From: Desulfuromonadales bacterium
GTDB lineage: Bacteria; Desulfobacterota; Desulfuromonadia; Desulfuromonadales; Syntrophotaleaceae
Direction of reading: 5' to 3'
Assembly: GCA_030154185.1 (NCBI GenBank)
Contig: JASKKK010000006.1
Coordinates: forward strand, 5,056 to 69,055
Length of the DNA stretch: 64,000 nucleotides
The position numbers and the translations under genes were made by a program. How positions within the stretch are numbered: the stretch's first letter is position 1; each line of letters starts with the position of its first letter. The notes beneath the pieces were generated by a model, which made no database searches, had not been told where the DNA came from, and saw only the letters and a list, made by a program, of their open reading frames with translations. Shown here piece after piece: positions 10,025-47,425 of the stretch.

Positions 10025-10798
10025 ATGAAAAGATGGAGCGTGTTGTTTCTCGCAATGTTCGTGTTGTGTGCGGGCCTGACTTCAACAGCTCAAGCCAAGA
10101 TCGAGGTCGAAGGCGATGTTTATGTGGGCATCTGGGACAAGTACATCTGGCGCGGATTCGACCAGAGCGGCAGCAAACCCACCATCCAGGGCGGCATCGA
10201 TTTGAGCACCCACGGATGGACCCTGAGCTACTGGGGCAACTGGCAGCTGAGTGAGGACAAGGAAGAAGGTTACGAATCGGGTGAAAGCAACGAAACCGAT
10301 ATCATCCTGACCTACAGCCATGACGTCACCGACTGGCTGAACGTTACCGTTGGCGATATCTGGTACGCCATCGACTTCGGTACCAAGGACGACCTCAATC
10401 GCGACGGTTCGGTCGATACCAACGAGGTCTTCGGCATTTTCAGCTTCGACACCCTGCTCTCCCCCAGCGTCAAGATCGCCTGGGACTGGGACAAGGCTGA
10501 TGAAGACGGCCTCTACTTCACCTTCGACATCGGCCACACCTTCGATTTGAGCCAGTGGGTACCCAAAACCGCCCTCAACCTGGCTGCCGAGCTTTCCTAC
10601 AACCTGCACAGCGATTACCTGGTAGGCGACTATGCCGGTTTCCACGATTACGAACTTTATGTCAGCCTCGACTACGCTCTGACCGATCAGCTGACTCTGA
10701 GCCCGACTTTCTGGTTCACCTCGCCGATCTGCAGCGCGGCCAAAGACACCATCGATACGGAAACCACCGGCGCCATCAACCTGACATTCGCGTTTTGA
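10025..10798 (+). CDS. outer-membrane beta-barrel protein, TorF/Gcw_chp-like putative porin (module A)
   Basis: SD ggagg at 10012. Signal peptide MKRWSVLFLAMFVLCAGLTSTAQA. Motif YIWRGFDQSGSKPTIQGGIDL. Alternating beta-strand pattern. C-terminal ..INLTFAF. Confidence 0.7.
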   Translation: MKRWSVLFLAMFVLCAGLTSTAQAKIEVEGDVYVGIWDKYIWRGFDQSGSKPTIQGGIDLSTHGWTLSYWGNWQLSEDKEEGYESGESNETDIILTYSHDVTDWLNVTVGDIWYAIDFGTKDDLNRDGSVDTNEVFGIFSFDTLLSPSVKIAWDWDKADEDGLYFTFDIGHTFDLSQWVPKTALNLAAELSYNLHSDYLVGDYAGFHDYELYVSLDYALTDQLTLSPTFWFTSPICSAAKDTIDTETTGAINLTFAF

Positions 10799-11014: not shown

Positions 11015-12124
11015 ATGAGAAAAGCACTTTCGGGAACCGCGCTTTTCGGCATCCTGGGCCTGGTCGCCATCGGCCTGGCCCTGGCACCGGGCTGCGGTAA
11101 AGCAAAAAAAGAAACATTGCGCATTACCTGCTGGGGAGGCTACGCCAAGCCGTATGTAGCCGACTTCCAGCAGCTGATCAAAGAAAAGCACAATATCGAC
11201 GTGGAAGTCCAAATCACCAACCCCACCGACCAGGACGAGTTTTTCATGGCGGTGAAAGACAATACGGCCGATCTCATATCGCCTCCCATCGAGTTGCCGA
11301 AGACTCCGCGATTCTATGCTTATTCGGCGGAAACCCCCTATCTGCAACCGGTCGACGTCGAAAACATCCCCAATCTCAAAAACATGATGCCGGTATTCCG
11401 CGACGATACAACTCCCATCTTCGCCGGAAAACGCTACGGCGTCCCCTACAATTGCGGACCTTACGGGCTGGCTTACAATGCCGACGTCATCGATGCAGCA
11501 CCGACCACGTGGAACATCCTGTGGGAGCCCCGATATGCCGGGAAGTACACCATAAACAACAACTTCCCCAAGGTTAACGTCTGGATCACCGCCCTGGCTC
11601 TCGGCTACGGGTATGACGATATTTTCGATATCGCACGTCTCGACAGGGAAAAGGTGCAGCGACAGCTCAACGTTCTGGCCAAAAATGCCAAAAGCCTGTG
11701 GGATGGAGCCGCCAACCCGGATGAATTCCCCGAACTGTCCCTGGCCACGACCTGGGGCTTTGCAGCGCAGCAGGCCAACCTGAAAGGCGGCAACTGGCTG
11801 CTGGCCAGTCCCAAGGAAGGCGGCACGGCATGGATCGATTGCTGGTACATCGGCGTCGGCGCCGAGGGTATAACCAAGACCCTGGCCGAAGAATGGATCA
11901 ACTTCATGCTCGATCCGGCCCGCCAGGCCGACGTGGTCAAGTCCCAGGGTGTTTCTCCGGTCATCGCCGACGTGGGGGACCTGCTCGATGCCAAGGACAA
12001 GGCCATGTTCCACGTAGGGGATGAAGCATACTTCAAGACCGTTGCATTATGGAGGGTCATGAGCGAGGAGACGGAAGAGGCATTCAACAACATGTGGGAG
12101 GAGGCCAAAACACACAGAGAGTAG
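11015..12124 (+). CDS. PotD/PotF-like periplasmic solute-binding lipoprotein, orphan (module A)
   Basis: SD aggagg at 11003. Signal ending ..LALAPGC. PotD-like blocks (W..LW.P.Y.G, PKEGGTAWIDCW, INFMLDP). No permease or ATPase adjacent. Confidence 0.8.
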   Translation: MRKALSGTALFGILGLVAIGLALAPGCGKAKKETLRITCWGGYAKPYVADFQQLIKEKHNIDVEVQITNPTDQDEFFMAVKDNTADLISPPIELPKTPRFYAYSAETPYLQPVDVENIPNLKNMMPVFRDDTTPIFAGKRYGVPYNCGPYGLAYNADVIDAAPTTWNILWEPRYAGKYTINNNFPKVNVWITALALGYGYDDIFDIARLDREKVQRQLNVLAKNAKSLWDGAANPDEFPELSLATTWGFAAQQANLKGGNWLLASPKEGGTAWIDCWYIGVGAEGITKTLAEEWINFMLDPARQADVVKSQGVSPVIADVGDLLDAKDKAMFHVGDEAYFKTVALWRVMSEETEEAFNNMWEEAKTHRE

Positions 12125-12232
12125 ATTCGGGCAACATCTCCAACAAACAATTCTTGTTCAAGAAATGACGCACAGGGCATCCCGAGAACAGCACACTCAC
12201 CCTGTGGTTCACCCGAGACATGGAGGTGTCAC

Positions 12233-14494
12233 ATGCAACTCAAGTCAAAACTGTTTTACGGCATAATTTTTGGCCTGGCTCTGGCTTTTACAGCCAGCCT
12301 GGCCGGAGCTGTCGCCATCCGCGACGTCAAACCGGGCGAGGACGTATTCGATTACGTGAGCCGGATCAACGGCCAGTTTGATCAAACCCTTTATCAGCAG
12401 GTGGTCGGTGCCGCCAACTCCTTCAAGGAAGGGGACGAGGCCATCGGCGTGGCGGCCGACAACGACGCCACCCGCGAGAACGCCCGCAAATTGCTGGCCA
12501 ACACCAAAATCAAGGATCTGATGGCCAAGCCCCTGTTTGTGGACGCCCAGTACGACCTCATCACCAATACCACCGACATGGCCCAGTACAACAAGGTCAG
12601 GGACTGGACCCTGGGCGAATTGAAGGATTTCCTTCTCACCAAGTCCGAGGCTCAGATCAAGGGTATCATGTACGGGCTGCACAGCGATATCATCGCCAAC
12701 GTGGTCAAAATGATGTCCAACGAGGAGCTGACCCGCATCGGTCAGACGGTTTTCAACCCTCTGCCCGGCTCCAAGATCGGCGCCAAGGGTTATCTGAGCG
12801 CCCGCATCCAGCCCAACTCGCCGACGGATAATGTCGACGACATCGTCTGGCAGGTTTTCGACGCCTACTCCTATGGCGTTGGCGACATCGTCGTCGGTAC
12901 CAACCCCGTCGACAGCGAAGCAGCCAATATCGAGAACATCGAACTGGCCCTGCGCGACGTCATGCAGACTTTCGGCGTCGACAAGTACAACCCCTGGTGC
13001 GTGCTCTCGCACATCGACGTACAGGCCGAGGTCGAAAAGAACAACCCCGGCTCCACCGCTATCTGGTTCCAGAGTCTGGCCGGGGTGGTCGACGCCAACA
13101 AGACCTTCGACCTGACGCTGGAAAAGATGATGAATTATGCCAGCATGCGCAACGGCAAATACGGTCTCTACCATGAAACCGGCCAGGGTGCCGACTTCAC
13201 CAACGGTCACGCCAAGGGCTTCGACATGGTCGTTCACGAATCCCGCAAGTACGGCTTCGCCCGCGCCCTCAAGCAGCAGGTGGCGGCCGCCCAGATCGAC
13301 GGTCAGGGTGCCTGGTGCCATGTCAACGACGTGGCCGGCTTCATCGGGCCCGAGGTCTTCAAGACTCGGGAACAGCTGGTCCGCTGCTGCCTGGAAGACA
13401 TCGCCATGGGCAAGCTGCACGGCCTGATCATCGGCCTCGACATCTGTTCGACCCTGCACATGCCCGTCACCCTGGACGATCTCGACTGGTGCCAGGATCA
13501 GATCGCTCCGGCCAACCCCGGATACCTGATGGCCTTGCCGACCAAAAACGACCCGATGCTCAGCTACCTGACCACCGCCTTCCAGGACCATGTCCGGCTG
13601 CGCGAGAAGTTCGGCTACAAAGTCAACGACGACATGTGGAATTTCTTTAAGAAAATCGAAGTCATCGACGACAATGGCAAGCCGACGGAACACTTCGGCG
13701 ACCCGATCTGGGTCTATTACCAGTACCGCCTGGCCAAGGGTGACACCCGCAGCATGAAGGAAATCTACGCCGAAGGCCAACAGAAGGTCGAGGAAGTCCA
13801 GGCTCGCGGTGTGCCCCTGGCCATCGGCTACGGCGAAAACATATGGGATCTGGAGCCGAAGACCGACAAGCAGATCCACGACCTGTATAACGACGCCAAG
13901 ATCAGCCTGTGGGCCGAATTCACCCCGGAATTCATCGCCTCCATCCCCAACGCCGTAACCGTGCAGACCAAATCGGCCGACCGGGAAGACTATGTGGCGC
14001 ACCCGAGCACCGGCGAGGAATTCAATGATGCTTCCGTGGCCACCCTGGAGAAACTGCGGGCCAGCTGGGGCGGCAAGGCCCCGGACGTGCAGGTCATCAT
14101 TTCCGACGGTCTGAACGCCAAGGCCCTCATGGACGAAGATCACCTCATGCCCTTCATGGAAGAGCTGAAGGATCAGCTTGCCAAAGCCGGCTGGACCCTG
14201 GCCAAAGAAAACATCGTGGTCACCAGCGGCCGGGTGCGCGCCGGTTACCGGGCCGGCGAAACCCTGTTCACCGATCCCGACAGCACCCCGAAGGCCATCG
14301 TCCACATCATCGGCGAACGCCCGGGCAGCGGCCATCATGCCTATTCGGTCTACCTGACCCGTCTGGCTCCCGTCACCTGGTCCGCCGAGGGTGCCGACCA
14401 TGATGTGACCAAGGTCATCTCCGGCATTTCCAACACCGGTCTCGACCCGCGCAAAGCGGCACGTCAGGCCGTAAGACTGCTGCAGGAAATGTAA
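12233..14494 (+). CDS. fused EutB-EutC ethanolamine-ammonia-lyase-like enzyme with N-terminal signal peptide/anchor (module A)
   Basis: SD ggaggtg. N-terminus MQLKSKLFYGIIFGLALAFTASLAGAVAI. EutB blocks SARIQPN, GVGDIVVGTNPV, LYHETGQGA, VAGFIGPE, LEDIAMGKLHG. EutC blocks PDVQVIISDGLNAKA, GRVRAG, IIGERPGSGHH. Confidence 0.85.
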   Translation: MQLKSKLFYGIIFGLALAFTASLAGAVAIRDVKPGEDVFDYVSRINGQFDQTLYQQVVGAANSFKEGDEAIGVAADNDATRENARKLLANTKIKDLMAKPLFVDAQYDLITNTTDMAQYNKVRDWTLGELKDFLLTKSEAQIKGIMYGLHSDIIANVVKMMSNEELTRIGQTVFNPLPGSKIGAKGYLSARIQPNSPTDNVDDIVWQVFDAYSYGVGDIVVGTNPVDSEAANIENIELALRDVMQTFGVDKYNPWCVLSHIDVQAEVEKNNPGSTAIWFQSLAGVVDANKTFDLTLEKMMNYASMRNGKYGLYHETGQGADFTNGHAKGFDMVVHESRKYGFARALKQQVAAAQIDGQGAWCHVNDVAGFIGPEVFKTREQLVRCCLEDIAMGKLHGLIIGLDICSTLHMPVTLDDLDWCQDQIAPANPGYLMALPTKNDPMLSYLTTAFQDHVRLREKFGYKVNDDMWNFFKKIEVIDDNGKPTEHFGDPIWVYYQYRLAKGDTRSMKEIYAEGQQKVEEVQARGVPLAIGYGENIWDLEPKTDKQIHDLYNDAKISLWAEFTPEFIASIPNAVTVQTKSADREDYVAHPSTGEEFNDASVATLEKLRASWGGKAPDVQVIISDGLNAKALMDEDHLMPFMEELKDQLAKAGWTLAKENIVVTSGRVRAGYRAGETLFTDPDSTPKAIVHIIGERPGSGHHAYSVYLTRLAPVTWSAEGADHDVTKVISGISNTGLDPRKAARQAVRLLQEM

Positions 14495-14502
14495 TCTCGA
14501 CC

Positions 14503-14528
14503 GGGTCGCCGGGCTCTCCCGGCGACCC
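14503..14528 (+). other. perfect 11-bp GC hairpin immediately after the EutBC stop
   Basis: gggtcgccggg-ctct-cccggcgaccc. No U-tract follows. Confidence 0.6.
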
Positions 14529-14665
14529 GACAGCAACATGTGTCACCAACAGGAGGCGTAACGGTCACAGCATCGCCGTTGCGCCTTTCTTTTCCCCATG
14601 CCTATCTGCTTTCCCTATATCTTTACCCCCGCCATACGGAACCGGGGTCAGAAAGAAACGGTCGC

Positions 14666-15508
14666 ATGAACCATAATCTTCCCCCAGCACCACCACCGGA
14701 GACCGGTCCGCCGCCCCCACAGGATAAACGCCCCGGCCTGATCCGCGACGTCTTTCATAAAACACATCTGTGGGCCCATGCTCTGGTTATCAGTCGCTTC
14801 TACCGCTTCGGCGAAACCGGCAATCTCATGTATACCGTCGGCAAGAGCATCCTCGAGGGCGCGGTTCTGTACACCATGTTCAGCATGGCCCAGACCGAAT
14901 ACAAGGTCGCCGCCGTGCTGGGAGTCATGACCAAATATATCTATCCGGGCATTACCTTCGTCAGCAGCGTAAAAGTCTCTTCCTTTGTCGATCATCTGGA
15001 AAGATTTCCCGACAAAACCCTGCAACTCCAGAAACTCGTCGGAGGCGTCATTCTGGTCGGCATCGGCCAGGCTCTCGGCGCCCTGATGCTGCTGTTTTGC
15101 TATCCACCGTTTTTCAGGGTCTGCTTCGACAGCATGGGAATCAGCCGGTATCTGCTCGTTGGACTCTATCTCCTGCATCATATTTTCGACGGTTCGGCAC
15201 AGGTTGCCGAGGGAAGAATCTGGTTCAAACTCATCGAAATCAAATTGCGCCATGGCAATCTGAGACACATTTCGGAGAATTTCTGGGGCATCCATGCCAT
15301 GAGTCAGAACGTCCAGCTCATACTCGGTCTGATTCTGCTCTGGGGAACCACTCTGATCACGGGATTGTTCATAAACCGTCTCGATGCCGGCACCATGTGG
15401 ACGATCGTCCTGACGGGAACCCTTTTGACCGCCACCTCAAAATTCTGTCTGCCTATCGCATGGCACCTGCGCCTGCGCCATGAAACGAAGATGGACTCAC
15501 CCTCCTGA
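14666..15508 (+). CDS. polytopic membrane protein, unrecognised family (module A)
   Basis: Met43 of ORF 14540..15508. Pro-rich N-terminus followed by several hydrophobic helices. Paralogue at 41720..42565. Confidence 0.6.
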   Translation: MNHNLPPAPPPETGPPPPQDKRPGLIRDVFHKTHLWAHALVISRFYRFGETGNLMYTVGKSILEGAVLYTMFSMAQTEYKVAAVLGVMTKYIYPGITFVSSVKVSSFVDHLERFPDKTLQLQKLVGGVILVGIGQALGALMLLFCYPPFFRVCFDSMGISRYLLVGLYLLHHIFDGSAQVAEGRIWFKLIEIKLRHGNLRHISENFWGIHAMSQNVQLILGLILLWGTTLITGLFINRLDAGTMWTIVLTGTLLTATSKFCLPIAWHLRLRHETKMDSPS

Positions 15509-15614
15509 GCCATGGTGAAATCCCCCCATTTGGGGGATGGTTTTATATTCAGGTATCTGCTAGAAATAAGTCCAGGTAGCAGGAAATATAAAGAATCTGC
15601 TATTCACACAATTT

Positions 15615-15785
15615 GACAAGGGACGGGTGCTTAAGAAGCCTAACAGGGAAGACGGTGTAAATCCGTCGCGGTCCCGCCGCTGTAACCGGTGACGATGGCC
15701 ATATGATGCCACTTTTCGTACTCACGAAAGGGAAGGCGTGGCCGGCAGAATGACCCGGAAGCCAGAAGACCTGCCTGCCCCGCAT
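15615..15785 (+). promoter_or_regulatory. cobalamin riboswitch (leader of the cob operon)
   Basis: Conserved elements read directly: gggtgc..aacagggaagacggtgtaaatccgtcgcggtcccgccgctgtaacc..gccac..gggaaggc..B12 box agccagaagacctgcc. Confidence 0.85.
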
Positions 15786-15867
15786 ACGTGCTGTTGTGAC
15801 CTTCGAGGATTGAGGACCGACATTTCGTGCACGTGTGCAGATCGTTGGCTGGCGGATAAAAAACGGT

Positions 15868-37119: not shown

Positions 37120-37893
37120 ATGAAGAAGTGGAGTGTTTTACTGGTCTCCGTCTTTCTGCTGGCCGCCGGCTTCGTCAGCTCGGCCCAGGCGAAGATCGAA
37201 GTCGAGGGCGATGTCTACGTCGGCCTCTGGGACAAGTACATCTGGCGCGGATTCGACCAGAGCGGCAGCAAGCCCACCATCCAGGGCGGCATCGATTTGA
37301 GCACCAACGGGTGGACCCTGAGCTACTGGGGCAACTGGCAGCTTAGCGAGGACAAGGAAGAAGGCTACGAATCGGGCGAAAGCAACGAAACCGATATCAT
37401 CCTGACCTACAGCCATGACGTCACCGACTGGCTGAACGTTACCGTTGGCGATATCTGGTACGCCATCGACTTCGGCACCAAGGACGGCCTCAACCGCGAC
37501 GGTTCGGTCGACACCAACGAGGTCTTCGGCATTTTCAGCTTCGACACCCTGCTCTCCCCCAGCGTCAAGATCGCATGGGACTGGGACAAAGCTGATGAAG
37601 ACGGCCTCTACTTTACCTTCGACATCGGCCACACCTTCGACCTGAGCCAGTGGGTACCCAAAACCGCTCTCAACCTGGGTGCCGAGCTTTCCTACAACCT
37701 GCACAGTGATTACCTGGTGGGCGACTATGCCGGTTTCCACGATTACGAACTTTATGTCAGCCTCGACTACGCTCTGACCGATCAGCTGACCCTGAGCCCG
37801 ACTTTCTGGTTCACCTCGCCGATCTGCAGCGCGGCCAAAGACACCATCGATACGGAAACCACCGGTGCCATCAACCTGACCTTCGCCTTTTAA
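37120..37893 (+). CDS. outer-membrane beta-barrel protein, TorF-like putative porin (module B)
   Basis: Mature part differs from 10025..10798 at only 4 residues by my count (I/L, H/N, D/G, A/G). The signal peptide is diverged. Confidence 0.7.
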   Translation: MKKWSVLLVSVFLLAAGFVSSAQAKIEVEGDVYVGLWDKYIWRGFDQSGSKPTIQGGIDLSTNGWTLSYWGNWQLSEDKEEGYESGESNETDIILTYSHDVTDWLNVTVGDIWYAIDFGTKDGLNRDGSVDTNEVFGIFSFDTLLSPSVKIAWDWDKADEDGLYFTFDIGHTFDLSQWVPKTALNLGAELSYNLHSDYLVGDYAGFHDYELYVSLDYALTDQLTLSPTFWFTSPICSAAKDTIDTETTGAINLTFAF

Positions 37894-38068: not shown

Positions 38069-39187
38069 ATGAAAAAAACCTTGTGGGGAGCCGTTTCCGC
38101 CACTGCCGCGATTGTGGCTGCCGGCGCCCTGTTGCTAACCCCGGCCTGCAGCAAAAAAGCAGAGCTGCAAGAAGAAACCCTGCGCATCACCTGCTGGGGC
38201 GGCTATGCCAAACCCTACGTTGAGGACTTCCAGCAACTGGTCAAGGACAAGTACAACGTCGATGTGAACGTTGAGATATACAACCCCACAGACCAGGACG
38301 AGTTCTTCCAGGCAGTCAAGGAGAATACTGGGGATCTGATCTCTCCACCCATCGAACTGCCCAAGATTCCGCGGTTCTATTCCTATCAGGAAGGCAAAGA
38401 ATACCTGCAGCCGGTGGATGTCAACAACATCCCCAACCTGGCCAAAATGATGCCGGTATTCCGTAATGACCAGACGCCTTTCTACAACGGCGTTCGCTAC
38501 GGCGTGCCCTACAACTGCGGCCCCTACGGGCTGGCCTACAATCTTGACAAGGTCTCGACCGAACCCAACTCCTGGAACGTGCTGTGGTCCCCGATGTATG
38601 CCGGACAGTACACCATCAACAACAACTTCCCCAAGGTGAATGTCTGGATTTCCGCCCTGGCTCTGGGCTACGGCTACAAGGACATCTTCGACATCAACCG
38701 GCTCGATCGCGCCAAAGTTCAGGAAAAGCTCAACGTTCTGGCCAAAAACGCCAAGAGCCTCTGGGACGGCGCAGCTAATCCGGATGAATTCCCGGAACTG
38801 TCTCTGGCGACGACCTGGGGCTTCGCCGCCCAGGCTGCCAACCTTAAAGGCGGCAACTGGCGTCTGGCCACTCCCGCCGAAGGCGGTACGGCCTGGATCG
38901 ACTGCTGGTACCTCGGCGCAGGCGCCAAAGGCATGACCAAAACCCTGGCTGAAGAATGGATCAACTTCATGCTCGAACCCGAGCGCCAGGCCGACGTCGT
39001 GAAATCGCAAGGCGTATCCCCTGTCATGGCCGACACCGGCGACATCCTCAACGACGAGGAAAAAGCCATGTTCCACGTAGGCGACGAAGCCTACTTCAAA
39101 TCCGTTGCCCTGTGGCGGGTTCTCAGCGAAGAGACCGAACAGGCGTTCAACGAAATGTGGGAAACAGCAAAACAGCAGCGGAATTAA
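38069..39187 (+). CDS. PotD/PotF-like solute-binding lipoprotein, orphan (module B)
   Basis: SD aggagg at 38057. Signal ..LLLTPAC. Collinear paralogue of 11015..12124. Confidence 0.8.
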   Translation: MKKTLWGAVSATAAIVAAGALLLTPACSKKAELQEETLRITCWGGYAKPYVEDFQQLVKDKYNVDVNVEIYNPTDQDEFFQAVKENTGDLISPPIELPKIPRFYSYQEGKEYLQPVDVNNIPNLAKMMPVFRNDQTPFYNGVRYGVPYNCGPYGLAYNLDKVSTEPNSWNVLWSPMYAGQYTINNNFPKVNVWISALALGYGYKDIFDINRLDRAKVQEKLNVLAKNAKSLWDGAANPDEFPELSLATTWGFAAQAANLKGGNWRLATPAEGGTAWIDCWYLGAGAKGMTKTLAEEWINFMLEPERQADVVKSQGVSPVMADTGDILNDEEKAMFHVGDEAYFKSVALWRVLSEETEQAFNEMWETAKQQRN

Positions 39188-39300
39188 AACCTGCGGATGT
39201 CCCGTCATCGGGAGCATCCCGTATTTTTCACCCATGCTCCGCCTGCGGAGATAGCCGCAGAGCGGATGGCATCCCCATCTAACGAGACGGAGGTAAACGC

Positions 39301-41568
39301 ATGTTCAAAAAGGGGAAACTCGCAGCTGGCATTACCGGTGCTCTGGTAATGACCTTCCTGGCCAGTCTGGCCGGGGCCGTCACCATCGGGAGCGTCAAGC
39401 CCGGTGAAGACGTCATGCAGTATATCACGCGCACCAAGGGCAAATTCGACCAAACACTCTATCAGAAGGTCATCGGCGCCGCCAACGCTTACAAGGAAGG
39501 CGACGAAGGTCTCGGCGTGGCGGCAGACAACGAACTGTCCCGCGAAAACGCCCGCAAACTGCTGGCCAACACCAAAATCAAGGACATTAACAACAATCCG
39601 CTGTTTGTGGACGGACAGGAAAAACTGATCCGCCGCACCACGGACAAGGCCGCGTACAACAAGGTCAAGAACATGACCATGGGCCAGTTGAAAAACTTCC
39701 TGCTCACCCAGCCCGAGGCCGAAATCAAGGCCATCATGGGCGGTCTGCACAGCGATGTCATCGGCTCCGTGGTCAAACTGATGTCCAACGACGAACTGAT
39801 CCGCGTCGGCAGCAAGATCTTCAACACCCTGCCCGGATCCAACATCGGTGCCAAGGGCTACCTCAGCGCCCGTATTCAGCCCAACTCGCCCACCGACAAT
39901 CCGGAAGACATCCAGATGCAGGTACTGGACGGCTTCTCCTATGCCGTCGGCGACATCGTCATCGGTACCAATCCGGTCGACAGCCAGCTTGAAGCCACCC
40001 TGCGCGTTCAGAACGCCCTGAAGGAAATCGTGACCGCGTTTGAACTCGAAGATACGGTGCCCTGGTGCGTTCTGGCCCACATCGACGGTCAGGCCGCCGC
40101 TGAAAAAGAAGAGCCCGGCTCCACCGCCATCTGGTTCCAGAGCCTCGCCGGCACCGAAAGCGCCAACAAGACCTTCGACCTGACCATCCAGAAGATGATC
40201 GATTACGCCAAAATGCGTAAGGGTCCCTACGGCCTCTATTTCGAAACCGGTCAGGGCGCCGACTACACCAACGGTCACGGCCACGGTTTCGACATGGTCG
40301 TTCACGAATCCCGCAAATACGGTTTCGCCCGTGCTCTGAAACAGGAAATCGCCAAGACCAAGGGCGTTCCCGAAGACGAAGTCTGGCTGCACCTGAACGA
40401 CGTGGCCGGTTTCATCGGTCCCGAGGTATTCAAAACCCGCGAGCAGCTGGTACGCTGCTGCCTCGAAGACATCGTCATGGGTAAACTGCACGGCCTGGTG
40501 CTGGGCCTCGACATCTGCTCCACCCTGCACATGCCCGTCACCCTCGACGACCTCGCATGGTGCCAGGACCAGATCGCTCCGGCCAACCCGGCCTACCTGA
40601 TGGCCCTGCCCACCCGTAACGACCCGATGCTCAGCTACCTGACCACCGGTTTCCAGGACCATGTCCGCCTGCGTGAGAAGTTCGACTTCAAAGTCAACGA
40701 CGCCATGTGGGACTTCTTCAAGAAAATTGAAGTCATCGACGCCAACGGCCAACCGACCGAACATTTCGGCGACCCGGCATGGGTTTACTTCAAGTTCCGT
40801 CAGGCCAAAGGCGACACCCGCTCCTTCGACGTTATCTATGCCGAAGGCAAAAAAGCCATCAAGAACGTTCAGAACCGTGGTGTCGATATCGCTGTCGGCT
40901 ACGGCGAGAACATCTGGGATCTGGAACCGGTCACCAACAAGCGCATCCACGATCTGTACGACGATGCCAAAATCAGCCTGTGGGCCGAATTCACCCCGGA
41001 ATTCATCAACTCCATCCCCAACGCCGTAAGCATCAAGAGCCAGGCCCACGATCGTGAAAACTACATCTCGGCTCCGGCCACCGGTGAAAAGCTGTCCGCT
41101 TCCGCCGTGGCCACTCTGGACAAACTGGCCGCCTCCTGGGGCAATAAAGTCCCCGATGTGCAGATTGTGATCTCCGACGGCCTGAATGCCAAGGCGATCA
41201 TGGACGACGGTCACCTGATGCCTTACCTGAACGAACTGAAAAAACAGTGCAAAAAAGCAGGCCTGACCCTGTCCGACAAGAACATCGTCGTGACCGGCGG
41301 CCGCGTTCGCGCCGGCTACAATGCAGGGGAAGTACTGTACGGCAAAGCCGGCAGCGCTCCCAAAGCCGTGGTTCACATCATCGGCGAACGCCCGGGCAGC
41401 GGCCATCATGCCTTCTCTGCCTACCTGGTTAAAGTCAAGCCGAGCACCTGGGCCAAAGCCGGCTCGGTCGACCATGACCAGTCCAAGGTTCTGTCCGGCA
41501 TTTCCGACACTGGCCTGGTTCCCGCCGAAGCGGCCCGCCAGACGGTTAAGCTGCTGATGGAAATGTAA
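39301..41568 (+). CDS. fused EutB-EutC ammonia-lyase-like enzyme with N-terminal signal peptide/anchor (module B)
   Basis: SD ggaggt. MFKKGKLAAGITGALVMTFLASLAGAVTI. Same EutB and EutC blocks as the module A copy. Confidence 0.85.
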   Translation: MFKKGKLAAGITGALVMTFLASLAGAVTIGSVKPGEDVMQYITRTKGKFDQTLYQKVIGAANAYKEGDEGLGVAADNELSRENARKLLANTKIKDINNNPLFVDGQEKLIRRTTDKAAYNKVKNMTMGQLKNFLLTQPEAEIKAIMGGLHSDVIGSVVKLMSNDELIRVGSKIFNTLPGSNIGAKGYLSARIQPNSPTDNPEDIQMQVLDGFSYAVGDIVIGTNPVDSQLEATLRVQNALKEIVTAFELEDTVPWCVLAHIDGQAAAEKEEPGSTAIWFQSLAGTESANKTFDLTIQKMIDYAKMRKGPYGLYFETGQGADYTNGHGHGFDMVVHESRKYGFARALKQEIAKTKGVPEDEVWLHLNDVAGFIGPEVFKTREQLVRCCLEDIVMGKLHGLVLGLDICSTLHMPVTLDDLAWCQDQIAPANPAYLMALPTRNDPMLSYLTTGFQDHVRLREKFDFKVNDAMWDFFKKIEVIDANGQPTEHFGDPAWVYFKFRQAKGDTRSFDVIYAEGKKAIKNVQNRGVDIAVGYGENIWDLEPVTNKRIHDLYDDAKISLWAEFTPEFINSIPNAVSIKSQAHDRENYISAPATGEKLSASAVATLDKLAASWGNKVPDVQIVISDGLNAKAIMDDGHLMPYLNELKKQCKKAGLTLSDKNIVVTGGRVRAGYNAGEVLYGKAGSAPKAVVHIIGERPGSGHHAFSAYLVKVKPSTWAKAGSVDHDQSKVLSGISDTGLVPAEAARQTVKLLMEM

Positions 41569-41587
41569 AACCTCCTTCCCTGTGATA

Positions 41588-41622
41588 GACCCGGGGGCCT
41601 TTCGGCCCCGGGTCACCTTTTT
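41588..41622 (+). terminator. GC hairpin plus T-tract after EutBC B (attenuator/terminator)
   Basis: gacccgggggcc-tttc-ggccccgggtc followed by acctttttcc. Confidence 0.5.
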
Positions 41623-41719: not shown

Positions 41720-42565
41720 ATGCGAAACAGACCGGGATCCCCTATGCCTGAGCCAAGCCTGAAAACCGTCGTCGTGAATCGAGATCCCTCACCGCGCCCT
41801 CTCTGGCGGGATGTGGTTCACAAAACCACCCTCTGGTTTCACGCCATGGGGCTGAGCCCGTATTATCGCTATGGCGAGATCGGAAACCTGTTGTACACTT
41901 TTGGAAAGAGCATTCTTGAAGGGGCGGTGCTCTATACCATGTTTTCGATGGCCCAGTCCGAATTCAAGGTTGCTGCGATCCTCGGCGTGCTGACCAAGTA
42001 TTTTTACCCGGGCATCACCTTTATCAGCAACGTCAAGGTTTCTTCTTTCGTCGATTACCTGGAAAGGTACACAGATACCAGAACCCAGGTTCGTCGTTTG
42101 ATACGCGCCATGGCCCTGGTAGGAGGAGGACAGGCTTTGGGCGCTATTTTGTTGGTGCTGTGCTATCCTCCCTTTTTTACCAGTCTGTTCGGCACGAGTG
42201 CAGCCGGACGCTACGTGTTGATCGCTCTGTACCTGTTGCACCATATCTGCGACGGATCGGCCCAGGTGGCGGAAGGGCGCATATGGTTCAAACTGATTGA
42301 AATCAAACTGCGTAACGGACGACTGCAGCGGATATCCGAAAATTTCTGGGGCATACACGCCATGAGCCAGAACATTCAGTTGTTCGCCGGGCTGATACTG
42401 CTCTGGGCGGCGACGCTGGTCACCGGCCTGTTTCAGGATCATCTCGGCCATACCGTCATGTGGGGCATCGTATCATGCGGCACACTGCTGACCGCTTTTT
42501 CCAAGTTCAGCCTGCCGCTGGCCTGGAAAATGTCACTGCACCGTCAGGAGCACGAGGGAGAATGA
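41720..42565 (+). CDS. polytopic membrane protein, unrecognised family (module B)
   Basis: Paralogue of 14666..15508 (shared YRFGE.GNL.YT.GKSILEGAVLYTMFSMAQ, DGSAQVAEGRIWFKLIEIKLR). The start could be 41720 or 41744. Confidence 0.6.
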   Translation: MRNRPGSPMPEPSLKTVVVNRDPSPRPLWRDVVHKTTLWFHAMGLSPYYRYGEIGNLLYTFGKSILEGAVLYTMFSMAQSEFKVAAILGVLTKYFYPGITFISNVKVSSFVDYLERYTDTRTQVRRLIRAMALVGGGQALGAILLVLCYPPFFTSLFGTSAAGRYVLIALYLLHHICDGSAQVAEGRIWFKLIEIKLRNGRLQRISENFWGIHAMSQNIQLFAGLILLWAATLVTGLFQDHLGHTVMWGIVSCGTLLTAFSKFSLPLAWKMSLHRQEHEGE

Positions 42566-43338
42566 CAGAAACACCGATACTCCAGATTGAGAAACTCGAT
42601 TTCGGCATCGGCGGCCATGCCATCCTCAAGGATATCAATTGCCGGTTTGCCGCCGGAGCCATTCACGGTTTGATCGGACCTAACGGGTCGGGCAAGAGCA
42701 CTCTGCTGCGTAATATATGCCGCATCTGGGAACCGCAAAACGGCCGGGTGATGATCGAAGGCAGGGATGCCGGCCGTCTGCCGCGGAAATCTCTCAGCCA
42801 GATCGTGACCCTGGTGCAGCAGGATACGCGTCTCGATTTTTCCATTCTGGTCTCGGATTACGTCGCCATGGGACGCCATCCGCATCTGAAGCGCCTGCAA
42901 TGGCTGCGCAGACGCGACATGGATATTATCGATCAGGCTCTGGCCGTGACCGGAACCGAGATTTTTCGCAACAGGCTCATCAACGAGTTATCCGGAGGAG
43001 AAGCGCAGTTGGTCAGTCTGGCAAGAGCCCTGGCCACCGAGGCACCGATCATTTTGCTCGATGAACCGACCAGCGCTCTGGACATCCTGCACAAGCTCGA
43101 AATCATGGATCTGCTCTGCGATCTTCGAACCGCCGGCAAGACTATCATCATAAGCATCCACGATCTCGACCTTGCAAGACGTTACTGCGACACCGTGACT
43201 TTGCTGCAACAAGGGCGCGTCCATTACCACGGCATGGCCGAGGAAGGCTTTGCCGAACAACGCATCAAGGAGGTTTTCCATGTCGGCGTGGAAGAAATCG
43301 CATCCGAACATGGCGTCTCGCTGTTGTTCTACCGTTAA
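42562..43338 (+). CDS. ABC transporter ATPase, FecE/BtuD (iron-siderophore/cobalamin) type
   Basis: Walker A GPNGSGKST, signature LSGGE, Walker B ILLDEP. ATGA overlap with the upstream membrane protein gene. Confidence 0.85.
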   Translation: MTETPILQIEKLDFGIGGHAILKDINCRFAAGAIHGLIGPNGSGKSTLLRNICRIWEPQNGRVMIEGRDAGRLPRKSLSQIVTLVQQDTRLDFSILVSDYVAMGRHPHLKRLQWLRRRDMDIIDQALAVTGTEIFRNRLINELSGGEAQLVSLARALATEAPIILLDEPTSALDILHKLEIMDLLCDLRTAGKTIIISIHDLDLARRYCDTVTLLQQGRVHYHGMAEEGFAEQRIKEVFHVGVEEIASEHGVSLLFYR

Positions 43339-44383
43339 ACAAATTCTCGCAGGCTTCATATGGGCCGGACTGCTGACAATACTTCTCGGCGGAACCGCCA
43401 TGGCGGCGGAAAAGGCTCGCGGAGCCCGAAAATTCCCCCTGGAGATGGATGCCCTGATGGGAGCATTGAGCGATACCCATCGGCCGGCAGCGGTTTCCGT
43501 GCAGGGTTTCCCCCGTACCGTCAGCTACCGATTCGTTCGTTATGATTTCGCTTCGGACCGCATGTCTGAAGAAACCCGTTCGGTGACCCTGGCGCATCAA
43601 CCGCAGCGTATCATCCCTCACTCCATCGGGTTGACGGAAATTCTCTGGGCCATCGTGCCTCATGAACGCCTGATCGCCGTTCACAAAAGCTGTAAAGACC
43701 GGCAGTTTTCCTTTCTCGCGCCGCTGCTGCCGAAAGACCTGCCCACCTATGGCACCGACGATGCCGAAATCGTCATCGGCTACCGTCCCGACCTGGTCTT
43801 GACGTCTTTCTATTCCAACGAAAATTTTCTGCATCAGTTGCAGACGGCCCATGTACCCCTGGCGCAATTCGGATTCTTCGATGATCTCGAGTCGATCAAG
43901 GAACAGATCCTTCTGGCCGGACGCCTGACCGGCGAGGAAGCATCGGCACAACGCCTGGTCAGCGTCATGAACGAAAAGCTGCGCGACATTCAGACCGCGG
44001 TGCGACAGCGACGCGAAAAGATGAGCAAACCGCCGTCCGTTCTGTATTACGACAACATGGCTTATGTAGCAGGGGCCGGTACCACTTTCGACAGCATGTG
44101 CCGGGCTCTTGGGGTCGTCAATATCGCCGCCGCCAAGGGAATCCGCAATTTCAAGCAGATCGACTACGAAACCCTGTTGCAGTGGAACCCGGACGTGATC
44201 ATCGTGCCGGAGGAAAGCACATTCGATCGACAGCTTTACAATCAGGAAATCCTGGCGACGGCCCGCGCGGTCAGGCAGAAAAACATTCGCAAGATGCCGA
44301 CCGTCTATCTTCTGAGTTCATCGCAATATCTGATTGCCAGCATCAACTACCTGGCGGGACTGCTTTATGAATCGTCGTTCTGA
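43310..44383 (+). CDS. periplasmic binding protein, BtuF/FhuD (cluster A/type 8) class
   Basis: Signal-like ..AGLLTILLGGTAMA. PBP blocks (RIIPHSIGLTEIL, YRPDLVL, WNPDVIIV). Start uncertain (43280 or 43310). Confidence 0.7.
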   Translation: MASRCCSTVKQILAGFIWAGLLTILLGGTAMAAEKARGARKFPLEMDALMGALSDTHRPAAVSVQGFPRTVSYRFVRYDFASDRMSEETRSVTLAHQPQRIIPHSIGLTEILWAIVPHERLIAVHKSCKDRQFSFLAPLLPKDLPTYGTDDAEIVIGYRPDLVLTSFYSNENFLHQLQTAHVPLAQFGFFDDLESIKEQILLAGRLTGEEASAQRLVSVMNEKLRDIQTAVRQRREKMSKPPSVLYYDNMAYVAGAGTTFDSMCRALGVVNIAAAKGIRNFKQIDYETLLQWNPDVIIVPEESTFDRQLYNQEILATARAVRQKNIRKMPTVYLLSSSQYLIASINYLAGLLYESSF

Positions 44384-45422
44384 TCGTCGCCACTATGTCA
44401 TTACCGGTATCGTTGCCAGTTCGGCGGCCGTGGTACTGTTGCTGGGCGGTATTTTTCTGTCGATCCGCATCGGACCGTGGGAAATCGGCCTGCAGGATAT
44501 CGGACGGATCCTGGCAGCCAAGATTCTGCACATGAACATGTCCAGCGATCCGGCCCTGGAAGCCATCGTCTGGCTGGGAAGGGTGCCGCGCACCCTGACG
44601 GGAGTACTGGTCGGTTTCGCACTGGGCGCCGCCGGCACCATCATGCAAGGCATATTCAAAAACCCCATGGCCAGCCCGGGAGTCATTGGCACCAGTTCCG
44701 GTGCGGCTCTTGGTGCGGTCACCGCCATCTACATCGGCATGGCGGCCACCAGCATCTACGCGGTGCCGTCTTTCGCCATTCTTTTTGCATTTCTGTCGAT
44801 GCTGATCGTGCTGGGCATCGCCACAAGCGGCGGACTGACCTCTCGCTACACTCTGCTGCTGGCCGGCATCGCTTTCAATGCCATATTCAGCGCCCTGACC
44901 TCTCTGGTCATCGTACTGTCGACGGACCAGTTCGAAATGGCCCGGCAGATTGTCGGCTGGTTGATGGGCGACCTGACCAATCGCAGCTGGCAGCATGTCC
45001 ACATCGTCCTCATCATCACCCTGGTCGGCACCTTGTGGTCGTTGCTGTTCGCTCGCGATCTCAACATCATCATGCTGAACGAAGAAATAGCCGCCAACCT
45101 CGGTGTCAACGTGACCTTGTCCCGCAACATGCTGCTGTTTTTGGCAGCGCTGCTGACCGGGGGCGCCATCGCCGTGTCGGGCGCCATCGGTTTCGTCGGC
45201 CTCATCGCGCCGCATATCATGCGCAGCTTCATCGGTTCGGATAATCGCCTGCTGATTCCCGCCGCCGGGGTGCTGGGTGGCGCACTGGTCGTCTATTCCG
45301 ACTGCGTGGTCAGGGTCTGGGGTGGCGGCGGTCTGCGCATCGGCGTATTGACTGCCCTGCTCGGCGGTCCGTTCTTTCTCTATCTGATCATCCGCGACCG
45401 TCGCAAATTCGTCTTTTTCTGA
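44367..45422 (+). CDS. FecCD/BtuC-family ABC permease
   Basis: About 9-10 TM helices. Blocks PRTLTGVLVGFALGAAGTIMQG and GAIGFVGLIAPHI. Confidence 0.85.
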   Translation: MNRRSDRRHYVITGIVASSAAVVLLLGGIFLSIRIGPWEIGLQDIGRILAAKILHMNMSSDPALEAIVWLGRVPRTLTGVLVGFALGAAGTIMQGIFKNPMASPGVIGTSSGAALGAVTAIYIGMAATSIYAVPSFAILFAFLSMLIVLGIATSGGLTSRYTLLLAGIAFNAIFSALTSLVIVLSTDQFEMARQIVGWLMGDLTNRSWQHVHIVLIITLVGTLWSLLFARDLNIIMLNEEIAANLGVNVTLSRNMLLFLAALLTGGAIAVSGAIGFVGLIAPHIMRSFIGSDNRLLIPAAGVLGGALVVYSDCVVRVWGGGGLRIGVLTALLGGPFFLYLIIRDRRKFVFF

Positions 45423-45481
45423 ATCCCGTTCCGTCCGTCGGCATCCGGTCGACGGACGATATCGCTGGAGGCAACACTGTC

Positions 45482-47394: not shown

Positions 47395-47425
47395 GCCGCC
47401 CATATCAAGACCAAGGAAAGTTTCG

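What the first reader, a model, noticed from the sequence alone, without database searches (positions are those of the whole stretch)
12233..12355. The hydrophobic N-terminal extension of the EutBC fusion is translated and under purifying selection
Both paralogues start at an ATG with a strong SD (gacatGGAGGTGtcacATG and gagacGGAGGTaaacgcATG). They encode K-rich n-regions (MQLKSK / MFKKGK), a ~20-residue hydrophobic core and ..ASLAGA|V.., an AxA-like signal peptidase site. I aligned codons of the two copies across ASLAGAV.I..VKPGEDV. I count 8 third-position synonymous differences (agc/agt, gga/ggg, gct/gcc, aaa/aag, ccg/ccc, ggc/ggt, gag/gaa, gta/gtc) with the peptide conserved. That pattern is expected for a translated, selected segment rather than a leader. 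There is no twin-arginine motif, so export would be Sec-dependent and the cofactor would have to be loaded outside the cytoplasm. Caveat: each copy also has an in-frame start near where EutB homology begins (GTG at 12353 in DY[V]SR; ATG at 39415 in DV[M]QY). A shorter cytoplasmic isoform is therefore conceivable.
Basis: seen in the sequence. Interest (0 to 1): 0.75.

Follow-up and report, generated by a model that had tools for sequence, protein, structure and literature searches.

The report
Export signal on fused ethanolamine ammonia-lyase
Both copies of a vitamin-B12-dependent ethanolamine-splitting enzyme in this Syntrophotalea (Pelobacter) relative begin with a conserved, translated secretion signal, which implies that an enzyme always thought to work inside the cell is sent to the periplasm.

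Summary
Both EutBC fusions (12233-14494 and 39301-41568) start at the first in-frame ATG behind a GGAGG. Each encodes a Lys-rich n-region, about 13 hydrophobic residues and A-G-A|V. The eight listed synonymous differences are exact. One slip: the internal GTG is at 12356, not 12353.

The segment is translated and selected. 116 full-length homologues of 64-100% identity keep the frame. The core is variable in sequence but 96-100% uncharged, -1 is Ala in 108, and the mature N-terminus is near-invariant. dN/dS is 0.24-0.79 in the signal and 0.05-0.22 just after it. The internal starts are not conserved.

New here: the sister clade in Bacteroidota and deeper relatives carry a different export signal at the same place, a twin-arginine-like xR[RK]xF[LIFMV] motif (99/120 versus 0/120), often with a lipobox-like Cys. 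Export is therefore a trait of this fused clade.

The EutB substrate-contact residues and the EutB/EutC fold are intact.

Best reading: a Sec-exported, signal-peptidase-I-cleaved periplasmic ethanolamine ammonia-lyase that must acquire adenosylcobalamin outside the cytoplasm. Localisation is inferred, not shown. I found no paper describing it.

The parts
12222..12228 (+). Shine-Dalgarno GGAGGTG of eutBC1, 6 nt before the ATG
   Evidence: GGAGG is conserved 6-9 nt upstream of the start in 10 of 11 loci.
12233..12310 (+). Codons 1-26 of EutBC1: predicted Sec-type signal peptide (n MQLKSK, h LFYGIIFGLALAF, c TASLAGA). Predicted signal peptidase I cut after Ala26, between 12310 and 12311.
   Evidence: In the AlphaFold2 model, residues 1-30 form a lone helix plus coil at pLDDT about 60, against 95 or more from about residue 31. 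dN/dS is 0.24-0.79.
12311..12391 (+). Codons 27-53: conserved mature N-terminus VAIRDVKPGEDVFDYVSRINGQFDQTL. It runs into the canonical EutB N-terminus at about residue 43.
   Evidence: Near-invariant columns E+10, D+11, Y+15, R+18, D+24 and Y+28. dN/dS is 0.05-0.22. NCBIfam match starts at residue 43.
12233..14494 (+). eutBC1, a fused ethanolamine ammonia-lyase of 753 aa (EutB 54-486, EutC 552-753)
   Evidence: Pfam E = 2e-146 and 3e-35. It is 91% identical to the S. carbinolica DSM 2380 protein. Residues equivalent to E. coli R160, Q162, N193, E287, D362 and M392 are conserved. Foldseek gives 3abo_A TMt 0.90 and 3abo_D TMt 0.70.
12356..12358 (+). Not a conserved start codon.
   Evidence: Orthologues have GTC, GTT, GTA or ATC at this codon.
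39289..39293 (+). Shine-Dalgarno GGAGG of eutBC2, 7 nt before the ATG
39301..39378 (+). Codons 1-26 of EutBC2: predicted Sec-type signal peptide MFKKGKLAAGITGALVMTFLASLAGA, cut predicted before V27
39301..41568 (+). eutBC2, the paralogous fused lyase of 755 aa, 69% identical to EutBC1
39415..39417 (+). Not conserved.
   Evidence: Orthologues have TTC, TTT or TTG at this codon.
10025..10798 (+). TorF/Gcw_chp-family putative outer-membrane porin with its own signal peptide (MKRWSVLFLAMFVLCAGLTSTAQA|K), first gene of module 1
   Evidence: Pfam PF09694 and TIGR02001. Start and SD.
11015..12124 (+). PotD/PotF-like periplasmic amine-binding protein with a Cys-containing, lipoprotein-like signal (LALAPGC), module 1
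   Evidence: SBP_bac_6 at E = 6e-49. Best solved relatives are putrescine- and spermidine-binding proteins. Present in 9 Sec-type loci.
14666..15508 (+). Conserved polytopic membrane protein of unknown family (Pcar_0490 family) immediately downstream of eutBC1
   Evidence: No Pfam or NCBIfam hit. 121 clusters, all hypothetical. AlphaFold2 pLDDT 92 with no PDB fold match. Found in 10 of 12 Sec-type loci and 0 of 5 Tat-like loci.
37120..37893 (+). TorF-family porin, module 2
38069..39187 (+). PotD-like binding protein, module 2
41744..42565 (+). Pcar_0466-family membrane protein, module 2. The start is uncertain (41720 or 41744).
42460..45422 (+). BtuD/BtuF/BtuC-like ABC transporter directly downstream of module 2. 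The synteny recurs in distant Desulfobacterota.

Best explanation
What the segment is. The 5' 78 nt of each eutBC gene encode a cleavable Sec-type (signal peptidase I) signal peptide.

Proposed path of the protein. The fused EutB-EutC polypeptide is made from the upstream ATG. It is threaded unfolded through SecYEG and cut after A-G-A, giving a mature N-terminus of VAIRDVKPGEDV (copy 1) or VTIGSVKPGEDV (copy 2). It then folds in the periplasm.

Proposed function. In the periplasm the enzyme binds adenosylcobalamin and converts ethanolamine to acetaldehyde and ammonia. Ethanolamine would enter through the co-encoded TorF-type porin and be captured by the co-encoded PotD-like binding protein. 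Acetaldehyde then diffuses inward to the cytoplasmic aldehyde:ferredoxin oxidoreductase and to the dehydrogenases.

What is shown. The segment is translated and selected. It has every sequence feature of a Sec signal. The catalytic domains are intact. Related enzymes in other phyla carry other export signals at the same position.

What is inferred. Actual export and cleavage, the site of cofactor loading, and the roles of the neighbouring genes are all inferred.
For: 1. Start site. The ATG is the first start in the frame, with GGAGG 6-7 nt upstream. The SD is conserved in 10 of 11 loci.

2. Signal-peptide features in 116 full-length homologues. The n-region is net positive in 114. The uncharged stretch is 16-23 residues. 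Position -1 is Ala in 108, and -3 is A, V, G, S or C in all. The first 15 mature residues have net charge of zero or below in 114, so the positive-inside rule predicts N-in/C-out.

3. Conservation profile typical of signal peptides. The core is variable but uncharged, and AGA|V plus the mature N-terminus are near-invariant.

4. Selection. dN/dS is 0.24-0.79 in the signal, 0.05-0.22 in residues 27-53 and 0.05-0.29 in EutB. Between the paralogues, synonymous excess has p = 0.0019.

5. Structure. The AlphaFold2 model detaches residues 1-30 (pLDDT about 60) from a confident body.

6. Independent export signals in relatives. The Bacteroidota sister clade and deeper relatives have the xR[RK]xF[LIFMV] motif in 99 of 120 proteins, against 0 of 120 here and 1 of 120 in a control region. 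76 of 120 have a lipobox-like Cys. One N-terminus passes TIGR01409. In a neighbour-joining tree the two clades are sisters.

7. Enzyme intact. Pfam and NCBIfam EutB and EutC match. Six substrate-contact residues are conserved. The fold matches 3abo chains A and D.

8. Extracytoplasmic neighbours. The porin and the binding protein both carry signals.

9. Consistent published observations (PMC3543383). These two genes are the only eutBC genes reported for S. carbinolica, strains of which ferment ethanolamine. The genome has no eutA, the ATP-dependent reactivase.

10. No EutM-like shell protein in the window (query sequence recalled from memory).
Against: There is no experimental localisation, and no dedicated predictor (SignalP, TatP) was available. 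The case rests on rule-based features.

No adenosylcobalamin-dependent enzyme is known, to my knowledge, to work outside the cytoplasm. Adenosylation is cytoplasmic, no cobamide exporter is known (PMC13532332), and no ATP is available in the periplasm to reactivate the enzyme.

The adjacent binding protein and polytopic membrane protein were read in 2012 as an ethanolamine uptake system. Uptake would be pointless if the lyase is periplasmic.

Acetaldehyde made in the periplasm could be lost through porins.

Core hydrophobicity of the two window copies (2.29 and 2.02) lies below the clade median of 2.60.

Curated Tat HMMs pass for only 1 of 17 Tat-like N-termini tested. The 'second export route' in relatives therefore rests mainly on motif counts.
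Confidence: 0.7

Rival explanations
1. Uncleaved signal anchor. The segment targets the protein to Sec but is not cut. The lyase is then tethered to the periplasmic face of the inner membrane, possibly next to the co-encoded polytopic membrane protein.
For: The uncharged stretch is 16-23 residues, long enough to span a membrane. A conserved membrane protein is encoded immediately downstream in 10 of 12 Sec-type loci.
Against: A-x-A at -3/-1 is conserved at a fixed distance from the mature domain (-1 is Ala in 108 of 116 proteins). Such conservation has no obvious purpose without cleavage. With the 6-7-residue c-region subtracted, the hydrophobic core is about 13 residues, which is typical of cleaved signals.
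Confidence: 0.12
2. Cytoplasmic-face membrane tether. The hydrophobic helix anchors a cytoplasmic lyase to the inner membrane so that it receives ethanolamine directly from a binding-protein-dependent importer formed by the neighbouring genes.
For: The gene neighbourhood has a binding protein and a polytopic membrane protein, read as an uptake system in PMC3543383. Adenosylcobalamin and ATP are cytoplasmic (established knowledge).
Against: The charge distribution is the reverse of what an N-out/C-in anchor needs. The n-region is net +1 to +6 in 114 of 116 proteins, and the first 15 mature residues have net charge of zero or below in 114. This reading does not explain the conserved A-x-A. Relatives carry RR/RK-motif and lipobox-type signals instead.
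Confidence: 0.07
3. Two isoforms. An exported form is made from the upstream ATG and a cytoplasmic form from the internal GTG 12356 or ATG 39415.
For: In-frame start codons exist in both window copies near where EutB homology begins.
Against: Neither codon is a start codon in the closest orthologues, which have GTC, GTT, GTA or ATC, and TTC, TTT or TTG. There is no well-spaced SD: GAGGA lies about 15 nt upstream in copy 1. The residues before these codons are as conserved as the enzyme core.
Confidence: 0.05
4. Mis-called start. The region is a 5' leader, and the real protein begins downstream.
For: Canonical EutB proteins lack this segment.
Against: The frame is open in every orthologue examined, and lengths differ only by whole codons. 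dN/dS is below 1. The SD sits at the upstream ATG. The downstream start is not conserved.
Confidence: 0.03
5. Microcompartment encapsulation peptide, like the N-terminal targeting helix of canonical EutC.
For: Canonical ethanolamine ammonia-lyase is targeted to microcompartments by a short N-terminal helix (established knowledge). The fused EutC part lacks the first ~35 positions of the Pfam EutC profile, which I take, from my own knowledge, to be the region carrying that signal in canonical EutC.
Against: No EutM-like shell protein is encoded in the window or the fetched loci. The four-gene module has no BMC domain. The segment has an n-h-c architecture with A-x-A, not a short amphipathic helix.
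Confidence: 0.01

Closest known systems
Canonical ethanolamine ammonia-lyase EutB/EutC of E. coli, Salmonella and Listeria (PDB 3abo, 2qez)
   Same: Both Pfam domains are present. The substrate-contact residues R160, Q162, N193, E287, D362 and M392 are conserved. The predicted fold superposes (TMt 0.90 for EutB, 0.70 for EutC).
   Different: Here the two subunits are fused in one chain. The EutC part lacks the first ~35 positions of the Pfam EutC profile, where canonical EutC carries its targeting signal (my own knowledge). An N-terminal secretion signal is added. The genome has no eutA reactivase (PMC3543383), and no shell genes are nearby.
eutBC1 (Pcar_0491) and eutBC2 (Pcar_0467) of Syntrophotalea (Pelobacter) carbinolica, described by Aklujkar et al. 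2012 (PMC3543383)
   Same: Same genes in a close relative (91% identity). Same duplicated four-gene modules separated by cobalamin biosynthesis genes.
   Different: The paper reports the fusion, the duplication and the lack of eutA. It treats the lyases as ordinary catabolic enzymes and the neighbouring genes as an uptake system. It says nothing about a signal peptide on EutBC.
Corrinoid reductive dehalogenases (RdhA/PceA), the corrinoid enzymes known to act outside the cytoplasm (my own knowledge)
   Same: A corrinoid-dependent enzyme with an N-terminal export signal, working at or beyond the cytoplasmic membrane.
   Different: Those enzymes use Tat and are exported folded with the cofactor already bound. 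They use the corrinoid for reductive chemistry, not adenosyl-radical chemistry. The window proteins lack a Tat motif.
Sec-exported enzymes that receive their cofactor in the periplasm, such as c-type cytochromes and PQQ-dependent dehydrogenases (my own knowledge)
   Same: Unfolded export through Sec followed by cofactor insertion in the periplasm, the logic proposed here.
   Different: Those systems have known export or insertion machinery for the cofactor. None is known for adenosylcobalamin.
Periplasmic and surface B12-binding proteins (BtuF, BtuG)
   Same: Exported proteins that bind cobamides outside the cytoplasm. A BtuF/BtuC/BtuD-like transporter is syntenic with the exported lyase in six of the loci examined (window copy 2, L002, L003, L007, L008, L011).
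   Different: Those are transport proteins with no catalysis and no sequence relationship to EutBC.

Membership tests
Ethanolamine ammonia-lyase (EutB + EutC) | EutB and EutC domains above the curated thresholds | tested here: met
   PF06751 at 488 bits and PF05985 at 122 bits. NF011649 at 652 bits against a cut-off of 554. The EutC equivalog NF003971 scores 95 bits, below its cut-off of 230, because the EutC part is divergent and truncated.
Ethanolamine ammonia-lyase (EutB + EutC) | Substrate-contact residues of E. coli EutB (R160, Q162, N193, E287, D362, M392) | tested here: met
   All six are conserved in the phmmer alignment to 3abo_A. The same motifs are visible in copy 2. Residue numbers come from my reading of the alignment and my recollection of the 3abo literature.
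Ethanolamine ammonia-lyase (EutB + EutC) | TIM-barrel large subunit plus small-subunit fold | tested here: met
   AlphaFold2 pLDDT 91. Foldseek gives 3abo_A E = 5e-32, TMt 0.90, rmsd 2.0, and 3abo_D TMt 0.70.
Ethanolamine ammonia-lyase (EutB + EutC) | Adenosylcobalamin-dependent deamination of ethanolamine | not testable with these tools
   Indirect only. Strains of the species ferment ethanolamine, and these are the only eutBC genes reported (PMC3543383).
Sec-type signal peptide cleaved by signal peptidase I | Positively charged n-region | tested here: met
   K4 and K6 in copy 1; K3, K4 and K6 in copy 2. Net positive in 114 of 116 homologues.
Sec-type signal peptide cleaved by signal peptidase I | Hydrophobic core of about 7-15 residues followed by a polar c-region | tested here: met
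   The core is 13 residues and the c-region 7. Positions -20 to -4 are 96-100% uncharged across 96 distinct sequences.
Sec-type signal peptide cleaved by signal peptidase I | Small neutral residues at -3 and -1 | tested here: met
   The site is A-G-A|V. Position -1 is Ala in 108 of 116, and -3 is A, V, G, S or C in 116 of 116.
Sec-type signal peptide cleaved by signal peptidase I | Score from a trained predictor (SignalP or similar) | not tested
Sec-type signal peptide cleaved by signal peptidase I | Export and cleavage in vivo | not testable with these tools
   Needs N-terminal proteomics, reporter fusions or cell fractionation.
Twin-arginine (Tat) signal peptide, window proteins | S/T-R-R-x-F-L-K motif at the n/h boundary | tested here: not met
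   Copy 1 has no Arg in residues 1-26 and copy 2 has KK. The strict motif occurs in 0 of 120 proteins of this clade. Neither TAT_signal nor TIGR01409 hits.
Twin-arginine (Tat) signal peptide, Bacteroidota and deeper relatives | RR/RK motif with a weakly hydrophobic core, and a curated HMM match | tested here: inconclusive
   The motif occurs in 99 of 120 proteins against 1 of 120 in a control region. The cores are less hydrophobic (median 1.76 versus 2.60, p = 4e-9). TIGR01409 passes its cut-off for only 1 of 17 N-termini tested. Three score below the cut-off, and the RK variants are not detected.
Lipoprotein (signal peptidase II) signal, window proteins | Lipobox with an invariant Cys at +1 | tested here: not met
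   Neither window copy has a Cys in residues 1-40. +1 is Val or Ile in all 116 homologues.
Microcompartment encapsulation peptide | Short amphipathic N-terminal helix together with shell genes | tested here: not met
   The segment has n-h-c architecture. phmmer with an EutM sequence recalled from memory finds nothing among 373 window ORFs or in the fetched loci. The module has no BMC Pfam domain.

The most novel reading that the evidence does not exclude
This would be the first adenosylcobalamin-dependent radical enzyme that works outside the cytoplasm.

In the Desulfobacterota clade it is exported unfolded by Sec. The coenzyme must then be delivered to and loaded in the periplasm.

The conserved, uncharacterised Pcar_0490-family membrane protein is found next to 10 of 12 Sec-type genes and none of 5 Tat-like ones. 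That protein, or the syntenic BtuFCD-like, MoxR and VWA genes, would supply or recycle the cofactor. That would provide a handle on the unknown route of cobamide export.

Periplasmic placement would also serve as an alternative to microcompartments for keeping acetaldehyde out of the cytoplasm.
Probability: 0.35. Interest if true: 0.9.

Novelty: new variant of a known kind. Interest (0 to 1): 0.78.

Why it matters
Ethanolamine ammonia-lyase is a textbook cytoplasmic or microcompartment enzyme. Its coenzyme is made and adenosylated in the cytoplasm, and its repair needs ATP.

A large clade of the enzyme carries export signals. I saw hundreds of sequence clusters, from Desulfobacterota, Bacteroidota and unnamed deeper lineages. 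This implies ethanolamine is split in the periplasm or at the cell surface.

That reading would change three things:
- How ethanolamine turnover, ammonia release and acetaldehyde handling are modelled in sediments and marine Bacteroidota.
- Whether adenosylcobalamin is assumed to be available in the periplasm.
- How the neighbouring genes are understood. The porin, the amine-binding protein and the unknown membrane protein become candidates for substrate capture and cofactor supply rather than uptake.

The Sec-versus-Tat split between sister clades is a natural experiment on whether the cofactor is loaded before or after export.

Tried and rejected
Riboswitch control. An Rfam scan of the window found cobalamin riboswitches only at 15608-15792 and 54760-54933, and a Moco riboswitch at 52474-52594. 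None lies upstream of either eutBC module. None was found in nine related loci. Riboswitch control of the lyase genes is therefore not supported.

The downstream membrane protein. Pfam and NCBIfam gave no hit. A confident AlphaFold2 model gave no PDB match better than E = 0.26, with only a weak resemblance to half of an MFS transporter. Its function remains open.

Gene context in Bacteroidota loci (L010, L012, L013, L015). I recognised no shared neighbours by eye from ORF lists (no domain scan), and none of the window-module genes is present there. These loci gave no functional clue.

Curated Tat HMMs on 17 Tat-like N-termini. Only one passes. I report the Tat assignment of the relatives as motif-level only.

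Literature. Eight full-text searches were run: for periplasmic, exported, Tat-signal or signal-peptide ethanolamine ammonia-lyase, for eutBC fusions, for the species name and for the Pcar locus tags. They returned only the 2012 genome paper, which does not mention the signal.

Other readings. The internal-start, microcompartment-peptide and leader readings were considered and rejected on conservation evidence.
Full report
**What is in the window**

The window comes from a close relative of Syntrophotalea (formerly Pelobacter) carbinolica. EutBC1 is 91% identical to the DSM 2380 protein.

It holds two paralogous four-gene modules on the + strand. The order in each is:
- a TorF/Gcw_chp-family putative porin (10025-10798; 37120-37893);
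- a PotD/PotF-like periplasmic amine-binding protein (11015-12124; 38069-39187);
- a fused EutB-EutC ethanolamine ammonia-lyase (12233-14494, 753 aa; 39301-41568, 755 aa);
- a polytopic membrane protein with no Pfam or NCBIfam family (14666-15508; about 41744-42565).

Cobalamin biosynthesis genes lie between the modules. A BtuD/F/C-like transporter, MoxR/DUF58/VWA genes, an aldehyde:ferredoxin oxidoreductase and a riboswitch-controlled BtuB/TonB pair follow module 2.

Aklujkar et al. 2012 (PMC3543383) described this layout. They reported the fusion, the duplication and the lack of eutA. They did not mention a signal peptide on the lyases.

**Checking the observation**

- ATG 12233 and ATG 39301 are the first start codons in their frames.
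- GGAGG lies 6 and 7 nt upstream of them.
- The peptides are MQLKSK-LFYGIIFGLALAF-TASLAGA|V and MFKKGK-LAAGITGALVMTF-LASLAGA|V.
- The eight synonymous codon pairs are exact.

One coordinate is off by one codon. The in-frame GTG is at 12356, because 12353 is TAC. ATG 39415 is right.

Between the two paralogues, codons 21-38 show 9 synonymous against 4 non-synonymous changes (binomial p = 0.0019). The n- and h-regions alone (codons 2-20) do not reach significance, with pN/pS 0.66 and p = 0.19. The paralogue comparison therefore proves selection only for the c-region and beyond.

**Evidence from relatives**

The 120 best homologues are 64-100% identical and come mostly from Desulfobacterota genomes and metagenomes. 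All are fusions of about 755 aa.

Among the 116 that begin with Met:
- the n-region is net positive in 114;
- the uncharged stretch is 16-23 residues;
- position -1 is Ala in 108, and -3 is A, V, G, S or C in all;
- +1 is Val or Ile in all;
- the first 15 mature residues carry a net charge of zero or below in 114.

Column by column, positions -20 to -4 are variable (1.9-3.4 bits) but 96-100% uncharged. A-G-A|V-T-I and the following 30 residues are nearly invariant. This is the classic profile of a cleaved signal peptide: composition is conserved in the core, and sequence is conserved at the cleavage site and in the mature protein.

Pairwise Nei-Gojobori estimates on orthologous DNA give dN/dS of:
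- 0.24-0.79 for codons 2-26;
- 0.05-0.22 for codons 27-53;
- 0.05-0.29 for the EutB domain.

The frame is open in every orthologue, and lengths differ only by whole codons. The SD is conserved upstream of the first ATG in 10 of 11 loci. The two internal start candidates are GTC, GTT, GTA or ATC, and TTC, TTT or TTG, in orthologues. The segment is therefore translated, and a conserved shorter isoform is unlikely.

An AlphaFold2 model agrees. Residues 1-30 form a detached helix and coil at pLDDT about 60. The chain is confident (95 or more) from about residue 31.

**The decisive extra finding**

A scan of one genome per species returned fused orthologues of 56-64% identity from Bacteroidota. Their N-termini are not Sec-like:
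- MKKYSRRDFFLTSG... (Bacteroidales)
- MKKFSRREFIFTSG... and MKKLTRRDFLFTSG... (Prolixibacteraceae)
- MLQKISRKEFLTQVGVLGTSAFLFQAC... (Algoriphagus)
- MPGKKISRKQFITRAGYLGGYSILLGGC... (Sediminibacterium)

Deeper representatives at 40-60% identity show the same kind of signal, for example TRREFIASL, RRRSFLGAL...SGC, SRRKFLVMM and KRRTFLVGG.

Among the 120 best relatives of the Algoriphagus protein are Algoriphagus, Echinicola, Roseivirga, Leeuwenhoekiella, Aquimarina and Maribacter. In that set:
- 99 have xR[RK]xF[LIFMV] within residues 1-30, against 0 of 120 in the window's clade and 1 of 120 in a control region;
- 76 have a lipobox-like Cys.

Their hydrophobic cores are weaker than those of the Sec-type clade (median 1.76 against 2.60, Mann-Whitney p = 4e-9). 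This is the known direction of the Sec/Tat difference.

Curated Tat HMMs are much less convincing. TIGR01409 passes for one of 17 N-termini, is subthreshold for three, and misses the RK variants. I therefore call these signals Tat-like at motif level only.

In a neighbour-joining tree of the mature regions, the Bacteroidota clade and the Desulfobacterota clade are sisters. More distant fused EutBC proteins lack any signal.

Two kinds of export signal on sister clades of one enzyme are hard to explain unless export is the selected function.

**Is it still an ethanolamine ammonia-lyase?**

Yes, as far as sequence and fold can tell.
- Both domains score far above the Pfam thresholds.
- The six EutB residues that contact substrate in E. 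coli (R160, Q162, N193, E287, D362, M392) are conserved.
- The model superposes on 3abo chain A (TMt 0.90, rmsd 2.0) and chain D (TMt 0.70).

The EutC part lacks the first ~35 positions of the Pfam EutC profile. From my own knowledge, that is the region where canonical EutC carries its microcompartment-targeting helix. No EutM-like shell protein is encoded in the window.

**How it most likely works**

Shown: a translated, selected N-terminal segment with all sequence features of a Sec/SPI signal; intact catalytic domains; extracytoplasmic neighbours; and export signals in relatives.

Inferred: the polypeptide crosses SecYEG unfolded and is cut after Ala26. It folds and oligomerises in the periplasm, and it must bind adenosylcobalamin there. 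Ethanolamine entering through the TorF-type porin, and perhaps concentrated by the PotD-like protein, is split into ammonia and acetaldehyde. Acetaldehyde then reaches the cytoplasmic oxidoreductase, which has no signal peptide.

The published absence of eutA fits a compartment without ATP.

The cofactor supply is the weak point. Cobamide excretion across the inner membrane has been demonstrated in Salmonella, but its mechanism is unknown (PMC13532332).

One correlation bears on this. The uncharacterised membrane protein accompanies 10 of 12 Sec-type genes and none of the five Tat-like genes. A BtuF/C-like transporter is syntenic in six Sec-type loci. This is compatible with accessory functions needed only when the apo-enzyme is exported. 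It is a correlation from 17 loci, not a demonstration.

**Rivals**

- An uncleaved signal anchor, still periplasmic, is the most serious alternative (0.12).
- A cytoplasmic-face tether contradicts the charge distribution and the relatives' signals (0.07).
- Dual isoforms (0.05), a mis-called start (0.03) and a microcompartment peptide (0.01) are disfavoured by conservation data.

**Novelty**

The genes and the fusion are published. The export signal and its implication are not described in any paper I could find in eight full-text searches. The library covers open-access papers and bioRxiv only.

I rate this a new variant of a known kind: a familiar enzyme in an unprecedented compartment.

Confidence that the segment is a translated export signal is high, about 0.85-0.9. 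Confidence that the enzyme is an active periplasmic lyase loaded with cofactor outside the cytoplasm is moderate, about 0.6.

Noticed in passing
window 10025-10798 versus 37120-37893: The two TorF-family porin genes are 92% identical in DNA. Each 60-nt block of the barrel-coding part matches at 56-60 positions, but the signal-peptide block matches at only 32 of 60. Identity drops to random right after the stop codon. The neighbouring binding-protein, EutBC and membrane-protein genes are only 65-76% identical. This looks like recent gene conversion confined to the mature porin.
   Followed up: partly
window 14666-15508 and about 41744-42565: This is a conserved polytopic membrane protein of the Pcar_0490/0466 family, with an HHxxDGSAQxxEGRxWFK motif. 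It has no Pfam or NCBIfam hit, and only 121 sequence clusters exist, all hypothetical. The AlphaFold2 model is confident (pLDDT 92) but has no PDB fold match, only a weak half-MFS likeness. It is encoded next to 10 of 12 Sec-type eutBC genes and none of 5 Tat-like ones.
   Followed up: partly
window 42460-52239, and L002, L003, L007, L008, L011: A BtuD/BtuF/BtuC-like ABC transporter lies directly downstream of the exported lyase and its membrane partner in window copy 2 and all five loci. MoxR follows in the window, L002, L003 and L007, with DUF58 and VWA genes seen there too (L008 and L011 run out of sequence). The loci span distant Desulfobacterota. The link to the lyase is unexplained.
   Followed up: partly
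window about 12175-12215, and L004-L006: Copy-1 orthologues keep an ACAGGG...CCCTGT inverted repeat with a loop of about 20 nt, followed by GGTTCACCCGA, just upstream of the eutBC1 Shine-Dalgarno sequence. Copy 2 does not have it. It was not folded or tested.
   Followed up: no
window 15608-15792, 54760-54933 and 52474-52594: Two cobalamin riboswitches are present, one upstream of the cysG/cobA-like gene and one upstream of the TonB-dependent receptor. A Moco/tungsten-cofactor riboswitch lies upstream of the aldehyde:ferredoxin oxidoreductase. None controls the lyase modules.
   Followed up: yes
P0123 (1110 aa, from the representatives search): This is a fused EutBC preceded by about 400 residues that look like a C2-type domain region (my reading by eye; no domain search was run). 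It is probably eukaryotic. Other distant fused EutBC proteins (P0122, P0127, P0144, P0146, P0192, P0203) have no N-terminal signal at all.
   Followed up: no
window 12245-14539 (-) and 39205-41616 (-): ORFs of 764 and 803 codons lie antisense to the two eutBC genes. I take them to be the usual shadow frames of G+C-rich coding sequence, not genes, because the sense frames carry all the homology.
   Followed up: partly
L013, L015 and many proteins from P0391 to P0509: Most Bacteroidota relatives have SRKEFL (Arg-Lys, not Arg-Arg) followed by a Cys about 20 residues later, often in C-D-F or C-N-F. This suggests lipidated, possibly surface-exposed enzymes in aerobic marine Bacteroidota. Curated Tat models do not recognise this variant.
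   Followed up: partly
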